In this document: piece by piece, positions 35,765 through 45,968 of the stretch | How positions within the stretch are numbered: position 1 is the stretch's first letter | Layout: each line of letters begins with the position of its first letter | Source: Geopsychrobacteraceae bacterium | GTDB lineage: Bacteria; Desulfobacterota; Desulfuromonadia; Desulfuromonadales; Geopsychrobacteraceae | DNA: 64,000 nucleotides | Reading direction: 5' to 3' | Assembly: GCA_963665685.1 (NCBI GenBank) | Contig: OY762430.1 | Location: 91,838-155,837 of the forward strand | Made by a program: the position numbers and the translations under genes | The notes under the pieces: generated by a model | What the model saw: the letters and a program-made list of their open reading frames with translations, nothing else | Told to the model about the DNA's origin: nothing | Databases searched by the model: none

Positions 35765-36934
35765 CTAGGAGGGGTCCTGATCTACTTGGGACATTGCATT
35801 TAGAAAGGAACGAGTTAGTTGAGGGTGTAATGATTTTCCAATACTGTCGTTCATAATCTGTTGAATACGGCTGAAAGTCATGGGCTCTTTATAACTACGA
35901 CGGGTGCGCAGAGCGTCGTAAATATCTGAAATGGTCGTCATATGGCTGCATATACTGAGATTGCGTTTTTTCGTGGTTTCCGCAGGATAGCCGTTGCCGT
36001 CAAAACCCATATGATGCTCATATGCATTAATGATTGCCAAGTAGGGGATCCCCGGACAATTGATCAAGTATTCTGCGCCTAAGCGCGGGTGTTCTTTGAT
36101 TAATTGCCATTCTTCATCAGTGGGCCGTCCTGGCTTATTGAGAATTTCTGCTGGTATAAACATTTTACCGACATCGTGTAGCATCGCCGCAATGCCAATG
36201 TCTTTGAGTGCAGGACCGGTAATCCCAAGTAATTTTGCCTGGGCGAGATTCAGCAGGCAGATATTTGTGGAATGCACATAAACATATTCATCCATAGAAC
36301 GTAACGGTGCCATAGCAGACAAAATATGACTATGGGATGAAAATGAACTAATAAAGTCGTCGACTATTTCTCCAATAGCAATAGCAGAAACTTTGCTTTT
36401 AGCGACATTGGTGTATGTCTCCATAAACTTCCCACAATTTTTGGTAGCGACTTCATGAAAATCATGACTGCTTTTGTCGATGTGCTGTGTGTTACTTTTA
36501 TCGATGGTTAATTGCCCAATTTCTATGTGCGGAGCGTTCTGTAGCGATAAAATATTGTTTCGGGAATTAAGGTGTTGAGCAAAAGCGAGCAGTTCCTCTT
36601 GTGTAACTCCGGCAGTGATTTCGAGAAAGTTAATGTTTTTGTCTTGTAGCAAATGATTAAAACGTTCATTGCTGATTGTTTCTTCACAGCGCACATCATT
36701 AATAATGAGTCTGTTTTTAAGTCGTTTGAAGGTGAATTTCTGTTCATTTCTAAAGCTGTTGGCTAATTGCTCAAGGGCTTTGGTACACAGGTTGTGTATT
36801 TGGGGGTGACTTGATCCATATAATGAAATATTAGCTGTAATCGCTATAATATGTTGGATAAAAGGCTGAATGCTATTTTTGACACTATTGCTGCTATCCA
36901 CATTAGCTCCGCTCTGCCAGAGTTTCTTTTTCAT
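35765..36934 (-). CDS. HD-GYP domain phosphodiesterase, paralog B (RSYK)
   Basis: DEYVYVHS, LHDVGK, EHP..G, EHHMGFDGNGYP, DIYDALRTRRSYK. Confidence 0.88.
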   Translation of the reverse strand: MKKKLWQSGANVDSSNSVKNSIQPFIQHIIAITANISLYGSSHPQIHNLCTKALEQLANSFRNEQKFTFKRLKNRLIINDVRCEETISNERFNHLLQDKNINFLEITAGVTQEELLAFAQHLNSRNNILSLQNAPHIEIGQLTIDKSNTQHIDKSSHDFHEVATKNCGKFMETYTNVAKSKVSAIAIGEIVDDFISSFSSHSHILSAMAPLRSMDEYVYVHSTNICLLNLAQAKLLGITGPALKDIGIAAMLHDVGKMFIPAEILNKPGRPTDEEWQLIKEHPRLGAEYLINCPGIPYLAIINAYEHHMGFDGNGYPAETTKKRNLSICSHMTTISDIYDALRTRRSYKEPMTFSRIQQIMNDSIGKSLHPQLTRSFLNAMSQVDQDPS

Positions 36935-36979: not shown

Positions 36980-39007
36980 TTATTTACCAAACATTTCTAA
37001 TGCCTGTTTCACTTCAGTATGGAATATCTTTTGTTTACGGGGCCGAAAGAATCCTTTGACTGTAAGTATCTTAGTCAAAAAGGTTTGACTGCGAGGGTGG
37101 CCAATAACTGCCAAAGTCTTGAGTATCTGTTTTGCCATTGTCAACTCGTCCTCCGTCTGGGGTGTCGCTTGTATAAGTTTATGCAGTTGCTCTATTATTT
37201 TGTGATCATGGTTTTTTTCCGCAAGTTCACACATCTCTACAATCGTAGCGGAATCATCAGAGGTTAATTCTTTATAGATTAAACGAAGAGCAATACCCGG
37301 GTTTTTTCCCGCTAAAATCTTGATGGCTTCTTTACGTATCTGAGGGTACTCATGATTAGAGTATTTTAAAATGGTTTTGGTTGGGACTGATTCGTTCTGG
37401 CGGCCCATAATAAAAAGTAAATTGCGGATCAAAAACCATGGACCACTTTCAAGGTTTGCGATGATTATGGGATGAGCTTTTGCTCCTAACTCGACCAGCA
37501 GATCCATCCACAAGTGACGTCGTACTTTGTCTTCGTCAACTTTCAGACGTTCGACAAGTTGTTCTGCATATGGCTCCCCGATAAGTTTTATGTATTCAAC
37601 AATCTCTGCATATTTTTCTTCGGTCCAGAGCCTGATGGTATCGAGGACCTCATTAATAAAAGCAGTTGTTGTTTGGTTGGCAAGAACTTGTTCTTCAAGA
37701 AAGAGAACATGAGACGATCCACTGTAAAGATATCTTGACCAATTGAGGAATATGTTGCTCAACGATTTAAAATCGCCTGTTTGGACAAAAAAATTGGCCA
37801 GTTCAATGAAGGTATTCTGAATGTTTAATTCTGTTTGTTTGTCAACTTTTCGGTCAAGAAGCTCAAAGAGGGTCTCGCAACAATGTTTTTCAATATTAAA
37901 GCGTTGAAAGTCCGCGCAGTATAGAGCTGCTTCAGAGGGGGCCATATTGCTGATTACTTCTCCCGCCAGGATTTTATGAAGTGAATTCTGGTATTGAAGG
38001 GGGACATAATCATCAAGATTTTCTTCATGAAATAGTAGATCAAGTGGTTCTGATGATGACTTGGTTTCCTGCACAAAGATTGGCGTTGTGCTTTGTGGTC
38101 CAGTACTTTGTGAAAATTCACCAAGCAGGTCAAAAATGCGGGATGAGATTTTCAGGCTTTTATTGGCCGCCCGTTGAAAGGTTTCACTGAGAACCTCTTT
38201 TGGTAGCGAAGCCACAATGGCTGGGGCTTTGTCCGGGCATTTATCAAGGGTAGAAAACGTACTGGCTAATAGAGTATCAAGAACCTTTGGGCTCAAAGTT
38301 TGGGCCAGTCTCATCGTCTTGTCATCTAATTTTTGGTCGGTATGGTAGCGGGCCTGCAATATGCGGTTCAGTAGAGATCCCATCTGTTGTTCACCCAAAC
38401 TGTTACTCTCTGTATTATCCACATATTCATCAAGGAAACTTTCGACCTCTTTGTTATTCGAGACCCCTCCAAAAGAAATGGTGCTAATGAGTGTTTCCCA
38501 TAGTATGTCTTCATGATGAGTTTCATCGTTAGACGAAGATTCTTTTTTGTGCAGATGCGAATAATCGATGAAATTTATCTGGATATTGTCGAATGCTAAT
38601 TGGGCAAATTCTTCAGCAGGAGCCAGGTTATGGTTTGCCCCTCTATCTTGGTGCCATAAAAATTTGTGGAGTTTGTGAATTTCTTCTGGCTTCAGGTTTT
38701 TATGAAAGTGTATCGCGACAATATCATGAGCGGTAAAAAGTGATTTAAGGCTGTTAATCGCATGGTCTTGCTGCGGAAGCTCATGGTTGTCGACGAATAA
38801 AAAGTCCTGGCTACAGTGCAAAGAAAGTGATTCCGTACTGTCGTTACAGCAGTTTTGCAGTGCAGTCATCACCGAATGAATAATATTCTCCCGTTGAGGA
38901 TGCCCGGACGGATAAAAAGCTAACTGTCGACCCGCTAAAGCAAGGCTCTGCAAAAAAGAGAGTATGTTTAATAGTGATTCGTCAGAGTGCAATAGATTTT
39001 CCCCCAA
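36980..39007 (-). CDS. HEAT-repeat protein, paralog B
   Basis: C-terminal alpha-solenoid with PWFLIRNLLFIMG and QIRKEAIKIL repeats; homologous to 40214-42361; TTG start. Confidence 0.78.
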   Translation of the reverse strand: MGENLLHSDESLLNILSFLQSLALAGRQLAFYPSGHPQRENIIHSVMTALQNCCNDSTESLSLHCSQDFLFVDNHELPQQDHAINSLKSLFTAHDIVAIHFHKNLKPEEIHKLHKFLWHQDRGANHNLAPAEEFAQLAFDNIQINFIDYSHLHKKESSSNDETHHEDILWETLISTISFGGVSNNKEVESFLDEYVDNTESNSLGEQQMGSLLNRILQARYHTDQKLDDKTMRLAQTLSPKVLDTLLASTFSTLDKCPDKAPAIVASLPKEVLSETFQRAANKSLKISSRIFDLLGEFSQSTGPQSTTPIFVQETKSSSEPLDLLFHEENLDDYVPLQYQNSLHKILAGEVISNMAPSEAALYCADFQRFNIEKHCCETLFELLDRKVDKQTELNIQNTFIELANFFVQTGDFKSLSNIFLNWSRYLYSGSSHVLFLEEQVLANQTTTAFINEVLDTIRLWTEEKYAEIVEYIKLIGEPYAEQLVERLKVDEDKVRRHLWMDLLVELGAKAHPIIIANLESGPWFLIRNLLFIMGRQNESVPTKTILKYSNHEYPQIRKEAIKILAGKNPGIALRLIYKELTSDDSATIVEMCELAEKNHDHKIIEQLHKLIQATPQTEDELTMAKQILKTLAVIGHPRSQTFLTKILTVKGFFRPRKQKIFHTEVKQALEMFGK

Positions 39008-39090: not shown

Positions 39091-40227
39091 TTAATAAACT
39101 TTTTGAGAGTCGAGTTGTTGCAGGATAGTTAAAAAGTTGTACGTCAACTGAGGGTGAAGCTTGTTGCCTGCCAGGTTATGCATAATGTTAACAATCTGGG
39201 TTTGATCCAATGCGTCTTCGTAACTACGGTTTGTTCGCATGGCATCATAAGTGTCTGAAATAGCTGTTAAGTAGGAGCAGAAATGCTGTTGCCAGCCCGA
39301 GTCGACTTTGGGATACCCCGCAAGATCGTAGCGCATATGATGCTCGTACGCGGTAATCACCGCTAGACGTGGCACACCGGGAACGGTGAGTAAGTATTCT
39401 GCTCCAAGTCGTGGGTGCTCTTTCATGGCGCACCATTCACTATCGCTTAAAGCCTCTGTTTTGGTCAGGATCGATGGCGAAATAAACATTTTCCCGACAT
39501 CATGAAGCATTGCAGCAATACCAATATCAATAAGAAGTTGTCCCTCTATTCCCAAAGCTTTTGCCTGGGCGAGGTTCAGCAGGCAGATGTTGGTTGAATG
39601 GGTATACGTATATTCATCGATCGCCCTTAAAGGCGCGAGAGCCATAAAGGCATCCCCCTGTTTATTGAATGAATGAGCAAAGCTATTAACGATGTCTGTT
39701 ATTCCCGCAATTTTAACCTCTTTTTGTTGCTGAATATTCTCGTACAGGTCATTTATGTGGGTTGCTTCTACAGCCGCAATTTCCCCGAGATTTAAGAGGA
39801 CAAAATCATCATCGTCTGAGCTTTGATAACGAACTTCAACCTGACCAAAATGAATATGCTTACTATCGTATACGGTACCCGAACTGTCGTCTCCATGGCT
39901 TAAAACCTGAATAAGGTTGAGTAACTCTTCTGTATAAATACCGTCTTCAATTTTTAAATAACTGATATTTCGCTGCGAAAAGGAAGTAATCAGTTTTTTG
40001 ACAGTCATAGTTTCTTCTAATGGTTTGTTATTGTAAATCAGCTGATGATTGATCAGGCGTAAAATTAATGCATCTGTTGCACTGGTCAGTTGCTGCAGTA
40101 TGACCAGGGCCTGTTTGTTAAAACGTAATACCTGGTTGTGGTTTATATCGTAGAGGGCCGCATTAGCCGCAGCAGTCATCAGCAGACGAATAAAATTATA
40201 GATTGGAGTCTGGTCAAGTGGCTTCAT
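39091..40227 (-). CDS. HD-GYP domain phosphodiesterase, paralog A (RSYE variant)
   Basis: DEYTYTHS, LHDVGK, EHHMRYDLAGYP, DTYDAMRTNRSYE; ATG 40227 with AGGA RBS, overlapping the upstream gene end. Confidence 0.88.
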   Translation of the reverse strand: MKPLDQTPIYNFIRLLMTAAANAALYDINHNQVLRFNKQALVILQQLTSATDALILRLINHQLIYNNKPLEETMTVKKLITSFSQRNISYLKIEDGIYTEELLNLIQVLSHGDDSSGTVYDSKHIHFGQVEVRYQSSDDDDFVLLNLGEIAAVEATHINDLYENIQQQKEVKIAGITDIVNSFAHSFNKQGDAFMALAPLRAIDEYTYTHSTNICLLNLAQAKALGIEGQLLIDIGIAAMLHDVGKMFISPSILTKTEALSDSEWCAMKEHPRLGAEYLLTVPGVPRLAVITAYEHHMRYDLAGYPKVDSGWQQHFCSYLTAISDTYDAMRTNRSYEDALDQTQIVNIMHNLAGNKLHPQLTYNFLTILQQLDSQKVY

Positions 40228-42361
40228 GAGATTCCTGTTGTGCATTAGACAAGGCAGTTTGCATTAATTCCTTAAATTTCCCCCCAGCAAGTTCTTGAAT
40301 CAACTTTTTGGCACCTGGTCCTGAAAAATAGGGCAGGACTTGGATAATTTCCTGCTGTAGAGCTTTAATTCTGGGCGAAATAAAAAGCCCTTTTTTGGCG
40401 AGTAAGCGGCGAAACACAATGACACTGTCAGGGTTAGCGATTTCACCAAGAGTTCGTATGGTGGTCATTTGTAGCTGTAACTCTATGTCGGATGCTGCTG
40501 GAGTTTGAACAAGTGCGTGTAGAGTACTGAGAACTTCAGGGTCTTTACTCAAAGAAGCAATTTTAACGGCGGCTTCTCTCGTCCAAGGGTCATCGCTTTG
40601 CAGCTCTTGCCGTAAATACCGATTGGCCGGAACGGGATTGGTGAGAAGCAAGTTACCAATAGCCTCAATTCTGACCATTGGGTGGTCGTGATTACAAAAG
40701 GGCAAACTCGCTTTTAAGGTTGCCTGATTGGGTTGTTCTCTCAAGGCGATTAATAAGTTTCGAATCAGGTACCAACGTTCATCGGCGAGCGCTGAAATAA
40801 TTGTTTGTTGGGTATTGCTGCTAATCTTTTTAAGAATGTGTAGCCAGTGCATCCGTTCTTCTTTTGACGGGGCTAAACCAAGACGTTCAATAACCGGGGC
40901 GACGTAATGTTCCCCAACCGTTTGGACATAATGGGTCAATTCAATATGTTTTTCAGCCTCCCAGATATTGAAACCATCGAGGGTTTCGGCGATAAATGAT
41001 TTCTGAGAATGCGCTGCAATGACCTTCTCGGCAAAAATATCAAGGTTTGCATCGCCGCTATTCAGATGCTGGTTCCAGCTGATATAAATACTGGTGAGTT
41101 TTTTGAACCGTCCCGTATCCAGATAATATTTGGTCAGTTCAAGGAGTTGTTCCTGAATGGCGAGTTCTTGCTCCTTGGTAAGAGGATTCTCTAATAGTTT
41201 GAGGATGATTTGGGAAAAATGATCTTCAATTGACTGGTGTTCTAATAAGTAGCGCAATTCCGTCTTAACATTGTCTGGTATCAGATCGGGGCTGACTTTT
41301 TTTGAAAAAACATCATTTAATGCGGATTGGTATTGCTCTGGGAGATATGTTTCCTGCTGTTCTTCGCGAAATAGTTCATCGAGCCTGGCCTTGATGACAT
41401 CAGCCGACAAAGCAGCCCCTGAATGACGTTTACGTTGAGATTCGGAATTATTGTCAGAGAAGAGCTCCAGGAGGTTAACGAGGCGTGAAGAAACCTGTTG
41501 CTTTTGCTGACTTAATGACGCAAGGGATGCATTGATATATTGAGAAGATATTCCGGCTAAAATATTTTCCGCGGGCTGTGGATTTTTATCCAGTGCATTA
41601 ACAATGTGGCTTAGGAAGTGTTCTCTTGTCCTCGGATTCAGTTGTTGGAGGAGTTGATTTAAGCGTTGCCCGGCTTTGATTTGCTGGCTATTAGAACGTT
41701 CAGCATACATACTGTGAGTAATAAATTCAGTCAGGTTGGCGTGGTCATTGGCTGAGGGCTGGGTCTGAAGTTGATTTAAACTGTGTGCCAAATCAGAGAG
41801 TCTCTGGTCATTGTCACTGTCAAACGCCAGAATCCCACGGCTCAGACCGAAGAGGAAATTTCCCCACAAGTCAGAGTCTTCATTGTTCGTGTTGTTGCCT
41901 AATTCTTTGGCTTGAAAAGCGTCATAGTCAATAGCGATGACTTGGATATGAATGATACGCTGGTCCTCAAGAATAGAAGAGAAACCGCCGAACGATTCAA
42001 TATCGTTACGGTTACTTCTGAGTAATTGATTGAAGCGCATCAGTTCGTCTGTGGTTAATCCTTTTTGAAAGTTGACTGTTGCTATTCCGAGGTGGGTGAA
42101 AAAACGACAAAACTCTGCTACAGCTGAATGCTCATCGGTAAATTTCAATTGTTCAAAATAAACTGAATCCGGACCGATTCCTAGAGAGATTAATGGCGAA
42201 GAAAGAAAAAAATCTTGCAAAACCGCCAAGGTATTATTAATACTTTCCACAATCGCCGGATGCTCAGGAGGGTAGGTTGCCTGATGGCGCCTGGCGACAT
42301 TAAGCCTTTGGAGAAAAGTAATAATAAGAGGATTTTCAGTTTCTAATGGCCGTTTAGTCAT
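40214..42361 (-). CDS. HEAT-repeat protein, paralog A
   Basis: RWYLIRNLLIAL, MVRIEAIGNL, TTIRTLGEIA HEAT-like repeats; ATG 42361 preferred over the 42400 ORF start. Confidence 0.78.
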   Translation of the reverse strand: MTKRPLETENPLIITFLQRLNVARRHQATYPPEHPAIVESINNTLAVLQDFFLSSPLISLGIGPDSVYFEQLKFTDEHSAVAEFCRFFTHLGIATVNFQKGLTTDELMRFNQLLRSNRNDIESFGGFSSILEDQRIIHIQVIAIDYDAFQAKELGNNTNNEDSDLWGNFLFGLSRGILAFDSDNDQRLSDLAHSLNQLQTQPSANDHANLTEFITHSMYAERSNSQQIKAGQRLNQLLQQLNPRTREHFLSHIVNALDKNPQPAENILAGISSQYINASLASLSQQKQQVSSRLVNLLELFSDNNSESQRKRHSGAALSADVIKARLDELFREEQQETYLPEQYQSALNDVFSKKVSPDLIPDNVKTELRYLLEHQSIEDHFSQIILKLLENPLTKEQELAIQEQLLELTKYYLDTGRFKKLTSIYISWNQHLNSGDANLDIFAEKVIAAHSQKSFIAETLDGFNIWEAEKHIELTHYVQTVGEHYVAPVIERLGLAPSKEERMHWLHILKKISSNTQQTIISALADERWYLIRNLLIALREQPNQATLKASLPFCNHDHPMVRIEAIGNLLLTNPVPANRYLRQELQSDDPWTREAAVKIASLSKDPEVLSTLHALVQTPAASDIELQLQMTTIRTLGEIANPDSVIVFRRLLAKKGLFISPRIKALQQEIIQVLPYFSGPGAKKLIQELAGGKFKELMQTALSNAQQESHEAT

Positions 42362-42489
42362 GACTGTATTTCCAAAAAAATCAATTATTATAAGTTGCAA
42401 TACAACAGTATATCAGGAATATGGTCTATGCCGATAGTTCTCTTTAGACGGATTGTCAACTGCCAGAATTCTGCTTGTTCGACAAACTA

Positions 42490-43568: not shown

Positions 43569-45968
43569 ATGACTAAAGAAGATAAGAATAAGCTTTTGCG
43601 TAGCAGAGCAAGTTATTTTGGCGCTGGCTCAAACGCAAAGGGACGAGACCAGGTTGCTGGTTGGCTGCTTTTAGCAGTAACTCTTATATTGACGTTAATC
43701 GTTGTTCCTAAAGGTGGTTTTATCCCGGATTATCATGAGCCAGGGGATATTGCTGCCCGCGATATTAAATCTCCACGCGATCTTTTGGTCGAGGACGTGC
43801 CGCTCACTAATTCTAAACGAGAAGAAGCGGCTAATGGCATTCCTCTTGTTTATGATTATGATGTTGCTGCAGGTAGCCAGGCGATAAAGCGGATAAAGGA
43901 TGGTCTTGGCTTGCTCCTTCAACGCCAGGAAAATCCTTCGCCCCTTAATCTTGGCGAATTTTTGCCTTTGCTGGAAGCTGATTTTGGTGTCCCTTTAACG
44001 CCTGAAGAGTATCAGCCTTTGCTCAGCCTGCCTCTTGATCACGACCTTCCTGGTGCGACTGCAGATCTGCTTAAACCTGTTTTTTCTCACCCTATTGTTG
44101 CAAACATGGCAAATTTTAAGGCCCAGAAAGAAAAAGGGCTGATGCTGGTTGACCGCAATGCCGGAACAGAGCTTCCTGCTCAGTTACTGGAGCGTGTCAC
44201 AAGCCTTAATGATGCCCTGGCTGATGCACAGCGTCAACTCGACTTACTTGAAATTTCTGAGGTCCAAAGAGCTATTTTACTCAAGGTTGTGCAACAGCAG
44301 TTGCGGCCAAACCTTGCTTACAACGAAAGTGCAACAGAGCAGCGGCGGCAGGAAGCCAGTGCCCAAATTACTCCTGTTCTGTTTCAGATTAAAAAGGGAG
44401 AAATGGTGGTTCGCGAAGGTGAGCGTGTCACCTCCGACCAAATTCTGAAGTTAAAAGCCATTCGCGACTCAGGGCGTGATAATCGTAATTTTCAGACCGT
44501 GGCTGGCTTGTTCCTGTCTACATTGTTACTGTTATTTGTTGTAAATCTCTTTGCTAAGACCAATATCAGTAAGTATCGTCCTGATTCACGTGACCTCCTG
44601 TTTTTATCGGTCGTTTTCGTTGCTTTATTTGTCCTGATCAAAATCTCTATTTTTATTGCTGCTGCAATGGGTAGTACTTTTGCCTATCTTGATTCTTCTG
44701 CTTACCTTTATGCCGTTCCTTTTGCTACTGGCGCCATGCTGGTACGGATTGTCTTAAATTCCGAAACTGCGCTGCTTTTTGCCGTTTGTTTTACTCTGCT
44801 CGTAGGGGTTATCTTCGGTAATAATTTAATGATGGTTCTTTTTGTCCTTGCAGGCAGCTTGATGGGCGCACACGGAGTTCGTCACTGTCAACAGCGGACA
44901 ACTTTGTATCGGGCCGGTTTGTGGATTGGTCTCACGAATATGGCCTTGGTCCTGGGAACTCATCTTCTGGCTGGACACGTTTTTGAGTTGTTGCTGTTAT
45001 GGAAGATGGGGTTTGCTTTTTGTGGTGGTATCTTCAGTGCCGTATTTGTCAACGGTACAATTCCATTGGTAGAGCTGTTGTTTAAATACACCACGGATAT
45101 TAAGCTTCTTGAACTGGCCAATATGAACTCTCCTATTTTACGTCAGCTCATGATGGAAGCGCCTGGCACCTATCATCACTCTATACTAGTTGGAAATCTT
45201 GCTGAGTCTGCCGCTGAAGCGATTAATGCAAACCCTCTGTTGGCGCGTGTAGCTGCTTATTACCATGATATCGGTAAAATCAAAAAACCTCTGTACTTTA
45301 TTGAAAATGCTGGTGGTCAAAGAAATAAACACGATAAACTTGCACCCTCGATGAGTGCTTTGATCCTGACCTCACACGTTAAAGATGGTGTTGAGCTTGC
45401 TCGCGAGCACAAATTGGGAACCGAATTGATCGATATTATTCAGCAGCATCATGGGACCACGCTGATCAAATTTTTCTATGATCGAGCCAAAAATCAGTCA
45501 GATCCTGAGGTTCATCAAGTTTCCGAGCGTGATTACCGTTACCATGGGCCAAAGCCTCAGACCCGTGAGGCTGCGTTGATCATGTTGGCTGATGCTATAG
45601 AAGCTGCCAGCCGTACGCTTGCGGATCCGACCTCCGCCCGTATTCAGGGCATGGTTCAAAAGCTCATCAATAATATCTTTATTGATGGTCAGTTGGATGA
45701 ATGTGATTTGACTCTTAAAGATCTTAATCTGATTGCCAAAAGTTTTAACCGTGTCTTGTCCAGCTCATTCCATCATCGTGTTGATTATCCTGAGCCCGTT
45801 CATATTGTCCGGGATAAAGGTGAGACGGTTGAAAAATCTCCCGTCAAAGACAAAGTAAAGGTTAAATGTGCGAATTCAGATCGAAAACCAGCAGACAAAG
45901 TTCAAGATTCAGAAGCGTCAACTTCGCAAGGTAGCTCAGAAGATCTTAGACGTCTCGGGATTTCCTAA
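43569..45968 (+). CDS. 7TM-HD family phosphohydrolase (PgpH-like)
   Basis: Extracytoplasmic domain, about 7 TM helices, APGTYHHS, YYHDIGK, IIQQHHGT, YHGPKPQTREAALIMLADAIEAA. Confidence 0.92.
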   Translation: MTKEDKNKLLRSRASYFGAGSNAKGRDQVAGWLLLAVTLILTLIVVPKGGFIPDYHEPGDIAARDIKSPRDLLVEDVPLTNSKREEAANGIPLVYDYDVAAGSQAIKRIKDGLGLLLQRQENPSPLNLGEFLPLLEADFGVPLTPEEYQPLLSLPLDHDLPGATADLLKPVFSHPIVANMANFKAQKEKGLMLVDRNAGTELPAQLLERVTSLNDALADAQRQLDLLEISEVQRAILLKVVQQQLRPNLAYNESATEQRRQEASAQITPVLFQIKKGEMVVREGERVTSDQILKLKAIRDSGRDNRNFQTVAGLFLSTLLLLFVVNLFAKTNISKYRPDSRDLLFLSVVFVALFVLIKISIFIAAAMGSTFAYLDSSAYLYAVPFATGAMLVRIVLNSETALLFAVCFTLLVGVIFGNNLMMVLFVLAGSLMGAHGVRHCQQRTTLYRAGLWIGLTNMALVLGTHLLAGHVFELLLLWKMGFAFCGGIFSAVFVNGTIPLVELLFKYTTDIKLLELANMNSPILRQLMMEAPGTYHHSILVGNLAESAAEAINANPLLARVAAYYHDIGKIKKPLYFIENAGGQRNKHDKLAPSMSALILTSHVKDGVELAREHKLGTELIDIIQQHHGTTLIKFFYDRAKNQSDPEVHQVSERDYRYHGPKPQTREAALIMLADAIEAASRTLADPTSARIQGMVQKLINNIFIDGQLDECDLTLKDLNLIAKSFNRVLSSSFHHRVDYPEPVHIVRDKGETVEKSPVKDKVKVKCANSDRKPADKVQDSEASTSQGSSEDLRRLGIS

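What the first reader, a model, noticed from the sequence alone, without database searches (positions are those of the whole stretch)
39181..39320. The two HD-GYP paralogs differ at the nucleotide-specificity residue (RSYE vs RSYK)
Seen: HD-GYP-B has RRSYK (AAA codon, 35888-35890 on the minus strand) and HD-GYP-A has NRSYE (GAA codon, 39217-39219). Both also have HHM in place of the canonical HHE before GYP. Established: the RxxK/R motif recognises guanine of c-di-GMP, and Gln/Asn substitutions (Myxococcus PmxA, Bdellovibrio Bd2325) shift HD-GYP enzymes toward 3',3'-cGAMP; Geobacter uses cGAMP signalling. Inference: the duplicates may have split into a c-di-GMP enzyme and one with altered specificity (cGAMP or c-di-AMP) or a binding-only role. 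An RxxE variant is not one I know to be characterised.
Basis: partly seen in the sequence, partly recalled or inferred. Interest (0 to 1): 0.65.

Follow-up and report, generated by a model that had tools for sequence, protein, structure and literature searches.

The report
HD-GYP paralog with conserved RxxE pocket
One of two neighbouring second-messenger-degrading enzymes has swapped the lysine that normally reads guanine for a glutamate, a change conserved across a whole bacterial family, so it probably degrades a different signalling nucleotide than its twin, though no one has tested this.

Summary
HD-GYP-A (39091-40245, minus) reads NRSYE, with GAA at 39217-39219. HD-GYP-B (35765-36934, minus) reads RRSYK, with AAA at 35888-35890. 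Both have HHM instead of HHE.

The Glu is not a private mutation or a read error. It aligns with PmGH K317 and defines a monophyletic clade of 131 proteins (E 124, D 5, Q 2, never K/R). This clade occurs as one copy in 48 of 72 genomes of the window's own family (Geopsychrobacteraceae: Desulfuromusa, Malonomonas, Pelovirga) and in none of 161 other genomes of the order. The B clade keeps K/R (47 of 48).

All metal and catalytic residues are invariant in both clades. The only three catalytic-domain columns that separate A from B (336 M/L, 343 E/K, 358 L/S) are nucleotide-contact positions in the PmGH and DvhD crystal complexes.

The genome encodes a GacA-type Hypr GGDEF, two c-di-AMP cyclases, and no RxxQ/N HD-GYP. 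Each HD-GYP follows a HEAT-repeat partner that shares its unnamed N-terminal domain.

Most likely A is an active phosphodiesterase with changed base preference, 3',3'-cGAMP being the best guess. The substrate is unproven. I rate it a new variant of a known kind, of moderate interest.

The parts
40214..42400 (-). HEAT-A: 728-aa HEAT-repeat partner protein encoded directly upstream of HD-GYP-A, overlapping it by 32 nt. Its N-terminal ~110 aa are homologous to the N-domain of the HD-GYPs.
   Evidence: ORF. Pfam HEAT_2 E 9.9e-13. 27% identical to HEAT-B. hhalign of N-domains gives prob 97.9%, E 4.8e-13. An orthologue sits directly upstream of the clade-A gene in 46 of 48 genomes.
39091..40245 (-). 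HD-GYP-A: 384-aa protein made of an unnamed N-domain, a linker and an HD-GYP phosphodiesterase domain, carrying RSYE. Numbering follows the longest ORF. Database homologues start 6 residues later.
   Evidence: AF2 model pLDDT 81, with best Foldseek hits PmGH 4MCW, PA4781 4R8Z, DvhD 9RBZ and Bd1817.
39883..40212 (-). N-terminal domain of HD-GYP-A (residues 12-121; invariant Y32 and H36, the 'LYxxxH' motif). It is shared with the HEAT partners.
   Evidence: hhalign. AF2 of residues 1-140 gives pLDDT 88, pTM 0.82. No significant PDB fold match, best Foldseek E 0.55. No Pfam or NCBIfam hit.
39106..39648 (-). HD-GYP catalytic domain of A (residues ~200-380). Metal and catalytic residues D210, H216, H248, D249, K252, H277, H302, H303, D331 and D334 are all present. 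Y212 replaces the third-metal Glu, so this is the binuclear type.
   Evidence: Alignment to PmGH. Column conservation in 187 homologues. Residue roles from PMC4159591.
39217..39219 (-). Glu343 codon (GAA), at the fourth position of RxY[K/R]; equivalent to PmGH Lys317.
   Evidence: Clade A has E124/D5/Q2; clade B has K42/R5/E1.
39238..39240 (-). Met336 codon (DAM). Equivalent to PmGH Leu310, a hydrophobic contact to c-di-GMP, and to DvhD Met646, which buttresses the second guanine.
   Evidence: Clade A has M in 131/131; clade B has L in 48/48. Mapping. Contact roles.
39172..39174 (-). Leu358 codon. Equivalent to DvhD Glu668, which hydrogen-bonds the N2 amino group of the second guanine, and to PmGH Gln332.
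   Evidence: Clade A has L in 131/131; clade B has S40/N8; clade C has E6/Q1/L1. Mapping. Contact role.
39310..39342 (-). HHMRYDLAGYP motif of A: HH metal ligands, Met in place of the canonical Glu, and the GYP motif.
   Evidence: HH[M/I/L] is found in 126 of 150 subfamily representatives.
36980..39007 (-). HEAT-B: 675-aa HEAT-repeat partner of HD-GYP-B.
35765..36934 (-). HD-GYP-B: 389-aa paralog with the canonical pocket (DAL...RRSYK; KPG motif kept). The Lys349 codon AAA is at 35888-35890.

Best explanation
HD-GYP-A is a catalytically competent, binuclear-type HD-GYP phosphodiesterase. Its nucleobase pocket has been remodelled relative to its neighbour HD-GYP-B.

Three changes define the remodelling:
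- The Lys that donates a hydrogen bond to guanine O6 (PmGH K317) is a Glu.
- The Leu that packs on the nucleotide (PmGH L310 / DvhD M646) is a Met.
- The polar residue at the position that reads a guanine N2 amine in DvhD (E668) is a Leu.

Inferred: Glu343 accepts a hydrogen bond from an adenine N6 amine while the retained Arg340 reads N7. A would then prefer an adenine-containing cyclic dinucleotide. The best candidate is 3',3'-cGAMP made by the family's GacA-type Hypr GGDEF. B, with the canonical L...RxYK pocket, would stay a c-di-GMP enzyme.

Each enzyme is encoded behind a large HEAT-repeat protein that carries the same unnamed N-terminal domain. Inferred: that partner regulates or localises the enzyme through N-domain pairing.

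Shown: the sequence facts, conservation, phylogeny, the mapping onto crystal contacts, gene pairing, and the presence of the synthases. Inferred: the substrate, the hydrogen-bond scheme and the partner's role.
For: 1. Glu343 aligns with PmGH K317. K317 and R314 make the only side-chain hydrogen bonds to guanine base-1 (PMC4159591).
2. E/D/Q is fixed in a monophyletic clade of 131 sequences, and K/R in the sister clade B. The clade-A DNA signature is present once per genome in 48 of 72 genomes of the family and 0 of 161 elsewhere in the order.
3. Thresholds were set before the structure papers were read. With them, only 4 columns separate A from B, and the 3 inside the catalytic domain (336, 343, 358) all belong to the ~12 known nucleotide-contact positions out of ~181. 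The chance of that is C(12,3)/C(181,3), about 2e-4.
4. All metal ligands and the proposed catalytic D/K are invariant, and the fold is HD-GYP.
5. Within clade A the only alternatives to E are D and Q. RxxQ is the experimentally validated cGAMP signature.
6. Met336 accompanies a non-basic residue 343 across the subfamily: M with E/D/Q/N 244, non-M with K/R 129, M with K/R 36, non-M with E/D/Q/N 14. This includes a separate Geobacter/Trichlorobacter/Oryzomonas M...RxYQ clade housed in the same HEAT+HD-GYP module.
7. The genome has a REC-GAF-GGDEF with the Hypr Ser ('NDTHGHLAGS'). Its best PDB match is the G. metallireducens GacA Hypr GGDEF 6D9M (E 7.5e-53, against 1e-40 for the next hit).
8. None of the other seven HD-GYPs has RxxQ/N, so the cGAMP-phosphodiesterase role is otherwise unfilled.
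Against: - There is no biochemical evidence at all.
- K317A and R314A barely reduce PmGH activity, and a natural RxxS enzyme (HdgA) still cleaves c-di-GMP. The position tunes rather than dictates activity.
- A carboxylate can also read guanine: DvhD E668 bonds the guanine N2 amine. E is therefore not proof of adenine.
- The Hypr GGDEF is present in 23 of 24 family genomes that lack clade A, as well as in 16 of 16 that have it. Phyletic co-occurrence does not discriminate.
- No GEMM-I riboswitch was found in the genome, though that search's control did not ring.
- Leu358 also occurs with Lys343 in other paralogs, and Met336 occurs with Arg in 36 sequences. The triad is not a strict unit.
Confidence: 0.45

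Rival explanations
1. HD-GYP-A is still a c-di-GMP phosphodiesterase. The K-to-E change alters only affinity, product release or regulation, for example a higher Km that gives the cell a low-affinity and a high-affinity enzyme. The two modules would differ mainly in the signals their HEAT partners and N-domains receive.
For: PmGH K317A and R314A keep near wild-type activity (PMC4159591). RxxS HdgA hydrolyses c-di-GMP. Arg340, Tyr342, Tyr311, Lys252 and all metal ligands are unchanged. The genome has about 35 GGDEF proteins and few EAL/HD-GYP enzymes to balance them. The HEAT partners are far more diverged (27%) than the enzymes (42%), consistent with input divergence.
Against: A charge reversal opposite guanine O6 has been kept for the whole history of a family-wide clade and never reverted to K/R in 131 sequences. 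The remaining A/B-specific changes sit on nucleotide contacts. In PmxA a single Q-to-R swap at this site switched preference from cGAMP to c-di-GMP.
Confidence: 0.27
2. HD-GYP-A acts on a different adenine-containing or other nucleotide: c-di-AMP, a linear dinucleotide such as pApG or pApA, or another cyclic di- or oligonucleotide. It would be the first HD-GYP class dedicated to such a substrate.
For: Both base-proximal polar readers of guanine are gone: K317 equivalent to E, E668 equivalent to L. This would fit two adenines. The genome encodes two DAC (c-di-AMP cyclase) domains. The module lies next to, and divergent from, a PgpH-type 7TMR-HD gene in three genera. Wright et al. raised the possibility that HD-GYP variants act on newly discovered cyclic dinucleotides.
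Against: A PgpH homologue, the known c-di-AMP phosphodiesterase type, is already present. The phoH-pgpH-ybeY neighbourhood is a common housekeeping operon, so adjacency may mean nothing. Both A and B lack the third-metal Glu that usually goes with hydrolysis of linear dinucleotides. PmxA (RxxQ) did not cleave c-di-AMP.
Confidence: 0.18
3. HD-GYP-A is a non-catalytic nucleotide receptor or protein-interaction module, like DvhD, RpfG-type or HnoD-type degenerate HD-GYPs.
For: HHE is HHM and KPG is KTE in this protein. A obligately pairs with a large scaffold-like HEAT protein. Its Pfam HD_5 score is the lowest of the nine HD-GYPs in the genome.
Against: Known receptors have lost metal ligands: DvhD has HD changed to SQ and HH changed to MN, and HnoD and ECA3548 have altered HD/HHE. 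In clade A, H216, H248, D249, H277, H302, H303, D331, D210, K252 and D334 are invariant in 131 of 131 sequences. HH[M/I/L] is shared with clade B and the whole subfamily.
Confidence: 0.05
4. The Glu is a sequencing error or a strain-private mutation with no meaning.
For: None found.
Against: The same residue occurs in 124 of 131 clade members from independent genomes and metagenomes and in 48 species-level genomes.
Confidence: 0.01

Closest known systems
PmGH (Persephonella marina GAF-HD-GYP; PDB 4MCW/4MDZ), the reference c-di-GMP phosphodiesterase
   Same: Best sequence and fold match: phmmer E 1.9e-19, profile E 3.8e-33, Foldseek E 7e-10. It shares the H..HD..H..HH..D ligand set, the catalytic D/K, the GYP Tyr, and the Arg and Tyr of RxY.
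   Different: A has Glu where PmGH has K317, Met where it has L310, Tyr where it has the third-metal ligand E185 (binuclear rather than trinuclear), and HHM instead of HHE. A carries an unnamed N-domain instead of GAF.
cGAMP-selective HD-GYPs (GAPs): PmxA (RxxQ), Bd2325 (RxxN) and the G. metallireducens candidate (RxxQ)
   Same: A non-basic hydrogen-bond acceptor replaces K/R at the same position. The host encodes a Hypr GGDEF. Two clade-A members actually carry Q. Geobacter, Trichlorobacter and Oryzomonas homologues in the same HEAT+HD-GYP module carry M...RxYQ.
   Different: The residue is a charged carboxylate, not an amide. No RxxE enzyme has been assayed, and no paper in the library combines 'RxxE' with HD-GYP. 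The domain architecture differs from PmxA (Cache-TM-HAMP). I could not confirm that the tested G. metallireducens protein belongs to this subfamily.
PA4781 (P. aeruginosa; PDB 4R8Z), a binuclear HD-GYP
   Same: It lacks the third-metal Glu. Fold match: Foldseek E 4e-8, TM 0.66-0.69 on the target.
   Different: PA4781 has REC as its input domain and keeps HHE.
DvhD HD-GYP domain (D. vulgaris; PDB 9RBZ), a c-di-GMP receptor
   Same: Same fold. It has Met at the DAM position (M646) and shares the RxY motif. It supplies the contact map used here.
   Different: DvhD has lost the HD and HH metal ligands and is inactive. A keeps them all. DvhD has RSYR and E668; A has RSYE and L358.
Bd1817 family (DUF3391-HD-GYP)
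   Same: Similar size and layout: a small N-domain, a helical linker, then HD-GYP. Foldseek E about 2e-5.
   Different: There is no DUF3391 match. The N-domain has a different secondary-structure order (two long helices first, then beta-beta-alpha-beta-alpha-beta) and no PDB fold match.

Membership tests
HD-GYP phosphodiesterase domain | HD-superfamily metal ligands H...HD...H...HH...D (PmGH H189, H221, D222, H250, H276, H277, D305) | tested here: met
   A has H216, H248, D249, H277, H302, H303 and D331, aligned. They are invariant in clades A, B and C.
HD-GYP phosphodiesterase domain | GYP motif in the loop after HH | tested here: met
   G310-Y311-P312 in A (39310-39318). Invariant in 187 homologues.
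HD-GYP phosphodiesterase domain | Glu of the HHExxDGxGYP consensus | tested here: not met
   A and B have HHM. 140 of 150 subfamily representatives have HH plus a residue other than E (126 with M, I or L), 1 has HHE, and 9 had no motif match. The role of this Glu is not described in the papers read.
HD-GYP phosphodiesterase domain | RxY[K/R] nucleotide-binding motif | tested here: not met
   A has R340-S-Y342-E343: the R and Y are kept and the fourth position is Glu. B meets the motif (RSYK).
HD-GYP phosphodiesterase domain | HD-GYP fold | tested here: met
   AF2 model pLDDT 81. Top Foldseek hits are 4MCW, 4R8Z, 9RBZ and 3TM8.
HD-GYP phosphodiesterase domain | Metal-dependent hydrolysis of a cyclic dinucleotide | not testable with these tools
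   Needs enzyme assays.
Trinuclear HD-GYP subgroup | Acidic third-metal ligand (PmGH E185) | tested here: not met
   The equivalent residue is Y212, invariant in all clades. This places A and B in the binuclear group.
cGAMP-specific HD-GYP (GAP, Rxx[Q/N]) | Gln or Asn at the fourth motif position | tested here: not met
   A has Glu. Clade A overall has E124/D5/Q2.
cGAMP-specific HD-GYP (GAP, Rxx[Q/N]) | A cGAMP synthase in the same genome | tested here: met
   A GacA-like REC-GAF-GGDEF with the Hypr Ser; best PDB hit 6D9M. Orthologues are present in 39 of 40 family genomes tested.
cGAMP-specific HD-GYP (GAP, Rxx[Q/N]) | Preference for 3',3'-cGAMP over c-di-GMP | not testable with these tools
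   Needs LC-MS or biosensor assays.
Degenerate HD-GYP receptors (DvhD, HnoD, ECA3548 type) | Loss of HD and/or HH metal ligands | tested here: not met
   All ligands are intact and invariant, unlike DvhD with SQ and MN.
Bd1817 family (DUF3391-HD-GYP) | N-terminal DUF3391 (PF11871) domain | tested here: not met
   No Pfam hit at E <= 0.01. The profile match to 3TM8 starts only at profile position 129, outside the N-terminal domain (residues 12-121). The N-domain model finds no PDB fold.

The most novel reading that the evidence does not exclude
RxxE HD-GYPs form a previously unrecognised specificity class. They would be either the first HD-GYP enzymes dedicated to c-di-AMP or another non-guanine cyclic nucleotide, or a carboxylate-based solution for cGAMP recognition. 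They would work as obligate two-protein units with a HEAT-repeat partner through a structurally new shared N-terminal domain.
Probability: 0.15. Interest if true: 0.75.

Novelty: new variant of a known kind. Interest (0 to 1): 0.52.

Why it matters
HD-GYP enzymes are usually annotated wholesale as c-di-GMP phosphodiesterases. The one residue shown by experiment to reprogram them is this fourth motif position: Q or N gives cGAMP preference.

A family-wide clade under purifying selection carries a carboxylate there. It sits beside a canonical K-type paralog in the same genome, which gives a clean natural experiment on how cyclic-dinucleotide erasers partition substrates.

If A prefers cGAMP, it would fill the missing cGAMP-degrading step in Geopsychrobacteraceae and extend the predictive signature from Q/N to E/D. 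If it prefers c-di-AMP or something else, it would add a new activity to the HD-GYP fold.

The invariant pairing with an uncharacterised HEAT-repeat protein that shares a fold-novel N-domain also points to an undescribed mode of phosphodiesterase regulation. This module is present across Desulfuromonadales and Geobacterales, organisms studied for metal respiration and electroactive biofilms.

Tried and rejected
1. BLASTP of the A N-terminus against the HEAT-A N-terminus found nothing. Only profile-profile comparison showed the homology.
2. The first DNA pattern for the Hypr GGDEF (NDTHGHLxGS, up to 1 mismatch) suggested that GacA was missing from most clade-A genomes. This was a false negative. 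A protein search found Ser-bearing orthologues in 16 of 16 genomes. Co-occurrence then proved uninformative, because GacA is also in 23 of 24 clade-A-negative genomes.
3. A general motif pattern ending in NNN was trimmed by the tool, so the fourth residue could not be read from its output. I fetched 20 regions instead.
4. A search of the own genome for the GEMM-I riboswitch (RF01051) found nothing, but the control genomes also gave nothing, so this is inconclusive.
5. I tried to tie the tested G. metallireducens GAP (Gmet_3476) to this subfamily. No sequence is available in the papers or supplements, cluster names were uninformative, and no G. metallireducens hit was listed in the last homology search.
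6. Model coordinates are not exposed to the Python box, so I could not superpose the model on 4MDZ/9RBZ or measure distances.
7. NCBIfam gave only a weak sub-threshold NosR-family hit.
8. The ideas that E is exclusive to clade A, or that L358 is coupled to E, were rejected. RxYE occurs sporadically elsewhere (L023, L029), and L358 occurs with K in other paralogs.
Full report
**Observation.** The window holds four co-oriented minus-strand genes:
- HEAT-A: 40214-42400, 728 aa
- HD-GYP-A: 39091-40245, 384 aa
- HEAT-B: 36980-39007, 675 aa
- HD-GYP-B: 35765-36934, 389 aa

A reads DTYDAMRTNRSYE, with GAA at 39217-39219. B reads DIYDALRTRRSYK, with AAA at 35888-35890. Both read YEHHM...GYP.

The two enzymes are 42% identical (E 2e-90). 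The two HEAT proteins are 27% identical (E 1e-81). Both enzymes pass the Pfam HD_5/HD cut-offs, and HEAT-A matches HEAT_2.

**Where the residue sits.** phmmer against PDB sequences aligns A without gaps to PmGH (4MCW) across this stretch:
- A-D331 = D305, a metal ligand
- A-D334 = D308
- A-R340 = R314
- A-E343 = K317
- A-Y212 = E185, the third-metal ligand, so A and B are of the binuclear type

[quoted passage not shown] O6 bonds to R314 and K317, and N7 bonds to R314. A309 and L310 give hydrophobic contacts. K317A and R314A change activity little (PMC4159591).

Wright et al. showed that PmxA has RxxQ and prefers cGAMP, and that Q518R switches it to c-di-GMP. Rxx(K/R) makes up 88% and Rxx(Q/N) 4.7% of 11,504 HD-GYP domains (bioRxiv 10.1101/600031). 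Galperin and Chou add RxxS (still active on c-di-GMP) and RxxH variants. No paper in the library combines 'RxxE' with HD-GYP.

**Conservation.** The two homology searches returned 185 distinct proteins, which with the window's own A and B gave 187 sequences. In a FastTree tree they fall into three groups:
- clade A: n = 131; E 124, D 5, Q 2
- clade B: n = 48; K 42, R 5, E 1
- a small third clade: n = 8; R, S, C, N

Clade A stays monophyletic when 80 more sequences are added.

The DNA signature for DTYDAMRTxRxY[D/E] occurs exactly once in each of 48 of the 233 species-level genomes of the order. All 48 are in the window's own family, where 72 genomes were searched. The reversed control pattern gave no hits.

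Named relatives are Geopsychrobacteraceae MAGs (76% identity), Desulfuromusa, Malonomonas, Pelovirga and Geopsychrobacter.

**What else differs between A and B.** I set the thresholds before reading the structural papers. With them, only four alignment columns cleanly separate clade A from clade B:
- 153 (L/F), in the low-confidence linker
- 336 (M 131/131 versus L 48/48)
- 343 (E versus K)
- 358 (L 131/131 versus S/N)

A profile alignment to DvhD (9RBZ) gives A336 = M646, A340 = R650, A342 = Y652 and A358 = E668. In the 1.8 Å DvhD-c-di-GMP structure, M646 buttresses the second guanine. [quoted passage not shown] A336 is also PmGH L310.

So all three catalytic-domain discriminators fall within the roughly 12 known nucleotide-contact positions out of about 181. 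The chance of this is C(12,3)/C(181,3), about 2e-4. The other contact, metal-binding and catalytic residues are invariant in both clades: D210, Y212, H216, L247, H248, D249, K252, K262, H277, H302, H303, Y311, D331, D334, A335, R340, Y342. The AF2 model (pLDDT 81) finds PmGH, PA4781, DvhD and Bd1817 as its best folds.

A therefore looks like an active enzyme whose divergence from B is concentrated on the base pocket.

**Wider subfamily.** An exhaustive search gave 403 representatives at E <= 1e-30. Among the best 150, 140 have HH followed by a residue other than E (126 with M, I or L), and the fourth motif position is R 66, Q 31, K 19, S 7, H 6, E 2. HHM is thus a subfamily trait.

Geobacter, Trichlorobacter and Oryzomonas carry a large clade with D[C/V]FDAMRTRRPYQ, that is Met336 plus Gln343, in the same two-gene module. 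Across the subfamily, M336 goes with E/D/Q/N (244 sequences) and non-M with K/R (129). The exceptions are M with K/R (36) and non-M with E/D/Q/N (14). These counts are not corrected for phylogeny.

In the tree, the Q clade is not sister to clade A. A, B and the third clade group together. A non-basic residue at 343 therefore arose more than once, twice together with Met336. RxYE also appears sporadically elsewhere (L023 and L029).

**Genomic setting.** The own genome is 4.69 Mb in one contig and 45% GC. It has nine HD_5 matches, and A and B score lowest. Six of the other seven have RxY[K/R]; the seventh is a REC-linked degenerate copy without the motif. Six of the seven keep HHE together with GYP, and the exception reads HHEKYDGSGYN. 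None has RxxQ/N.

One of about 35 GGDEF proteins, a REC-GAF-GGDEF, has Ser at the Hypr specificity position (NDTHGHLAGS). Its best PDB match is the G. metallireducens GacA Hypr GGDEF 6D9M (E 7.5e-53). Orthologues with the same Ser are present in 16 of 16 clade-A-positive genomes. Full-length orthologues are also present in 23 of 24 clade-A-negative genomes of the family, although I did not re-check the Ser in those. The synthase is therefore available, but its distribution does not discriminate.

Two DAC (c-di-AMP cyclase) domains are also encoded. No GEMM-I riboswitch was detected, but that search's control also failed.

The module lies between a divergent phoH-pgpH(7TMR-HD)-ybeY-corC-lnt operon and an ABC-F gene. 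The same synteny holds in Desulfuromusa kysingii and Malonomonas rubra. D. kysingii has a single cassette (clade A, RAYD). M. rubra has A (RSYE) plus a third-clade copy (RSYR).

**The partner.** A HEAT-A orthologue lies directly upstream on the same strand of the clade-A gene in 46 of 48 genomes. The two exceptions are at contig ends. Other paralog types and the Geobacter Q type are paired in the same way.

Profile-profile comparison shows that residues 12-121 of the HD-GYPs are homologous to residues 23-133 of the HEAT proteins (prob 97.9%, E 4.8e-13). The domain models confidently (pLDDT 88, pTM 0.82). It has no Pfam or NCBIfam match and no significant PDB fold match (best Foldseek E 0.55).

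**Interpretation.** Shown:
- a conserved charge reversal at the K317 site
- co-divergence of two more nucleotide-contact positions
- intact catalytic machinery
- an obligate HEAT partner with a shared N-domain
- the presence of cGAMP and c-di-AMP synthases
- the absence of a Q/N-type phosphodiesterase

Inferred: Glu343 accepts a hydrogen bond from adenine N6 while Arg340 reads N7. A would then prefer an adenine-containing cyclic dinucleotide, most likely 3',3'-cGAMP, and B would remain a c-di-GMP enzyme.

My probabilities are:
- cGAMP-type shift: about 0.45
- still c-di-GMP with tuned affinity or regulation: about 0.27
- c-di-AMP or another nucleotide: about 0.18
- receptor only: about 0.05
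- artefact: about 0.01

**Verdict.** This is a new variant of a known kind, an RxxE HD-GYP clade. It is of moderate interest and directly testable with standard enzymology and residue swaps.

Noticed in passing
window 39883-40212, 36550-36900, 42000-42330, 38610-38940 (N-termini of all four module proteins): All four proteins share a ~110-aa N-terminal domain (invariant Tyr and His in an 'LYxxxH(P)' motif). It has no Pfam or NCBIfam family and no significant PDB fold match, so it may be an undescribed sensor or pairing domain.
   Followed up: yes
window 43569-45968 (+): A PgpH-type 7TMR-HDED/7TM-7TMR_HD/HD protein, the known c-di-AMP phosphodiesterase type, is encoded in the phoH-ybeY-corC-lnt operon divergent from the HEAT/HD-GYP module. 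The same synteny holds in Desulfuromusa and Malonomonas.
   Followed up: partly
own genome C1:1404740-1406158 (-), outside the window: A GacA-like REC-GAF-GGDEF with Ser at the Hypr specificity position (NDTHGHLAGS). Its best PDB hit is the Hypr GGDEF 6D9M. Orthologues are present in 39 of 40 family genomes tested.
   Followed up: yes
own genome C1:3320460-3321197 (-), outside the window: A small GGDEF protein (GGEEF) with Asn instead of Asp at the same substrate-specificity position (GHETGN). This is another candidate non-canonical cyclase.
   Followed up: no
own genome C1:2201918-2203243 (+), outside the window: A REC-HD-GYP protein with HHHENYDGSGYP but no D305 equivalent and no RxY[K/R] motif (…VANKFEKVF…), plus a ~90-aa C-terminal extension. 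It is probably a degenerate, non-catalytic HD-GYP.
   Followed up: no
L023 (G008, another family of the order) and L029 (G053): RxYE also occurs sporadically outside clade A: DTFDALRTRRAYE in an HHM-type paralog and DVFDALRTDRPYE in a canonical HHE-type HD-GYP.
   Followed up: partly
L131, L133, L136, L137, L141, L142 (Geobacter / Trichlorobacter): A large Geobacterales clade of the same HEAT+HD-GYP module carries Met plus RxYQ (D[C/V]FDAMRTRRPYQ), the validated cGAMP-type signature. It may include the G. metallireducens enzyme tested by Wright et al., but this could not be confirmed.
   Followed up: partly
G155:C1:4970339-4972339 and G131:C241:9637-11748 (relatives): Single in-frame stops interrupt HEAT-partner orthologues in two relatives: TAA in a same-genus HEAT-B orthologue and TGA in a HEAT-A orthologue. 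These could be pseudogenes or assembly errors.
   Followed up: no
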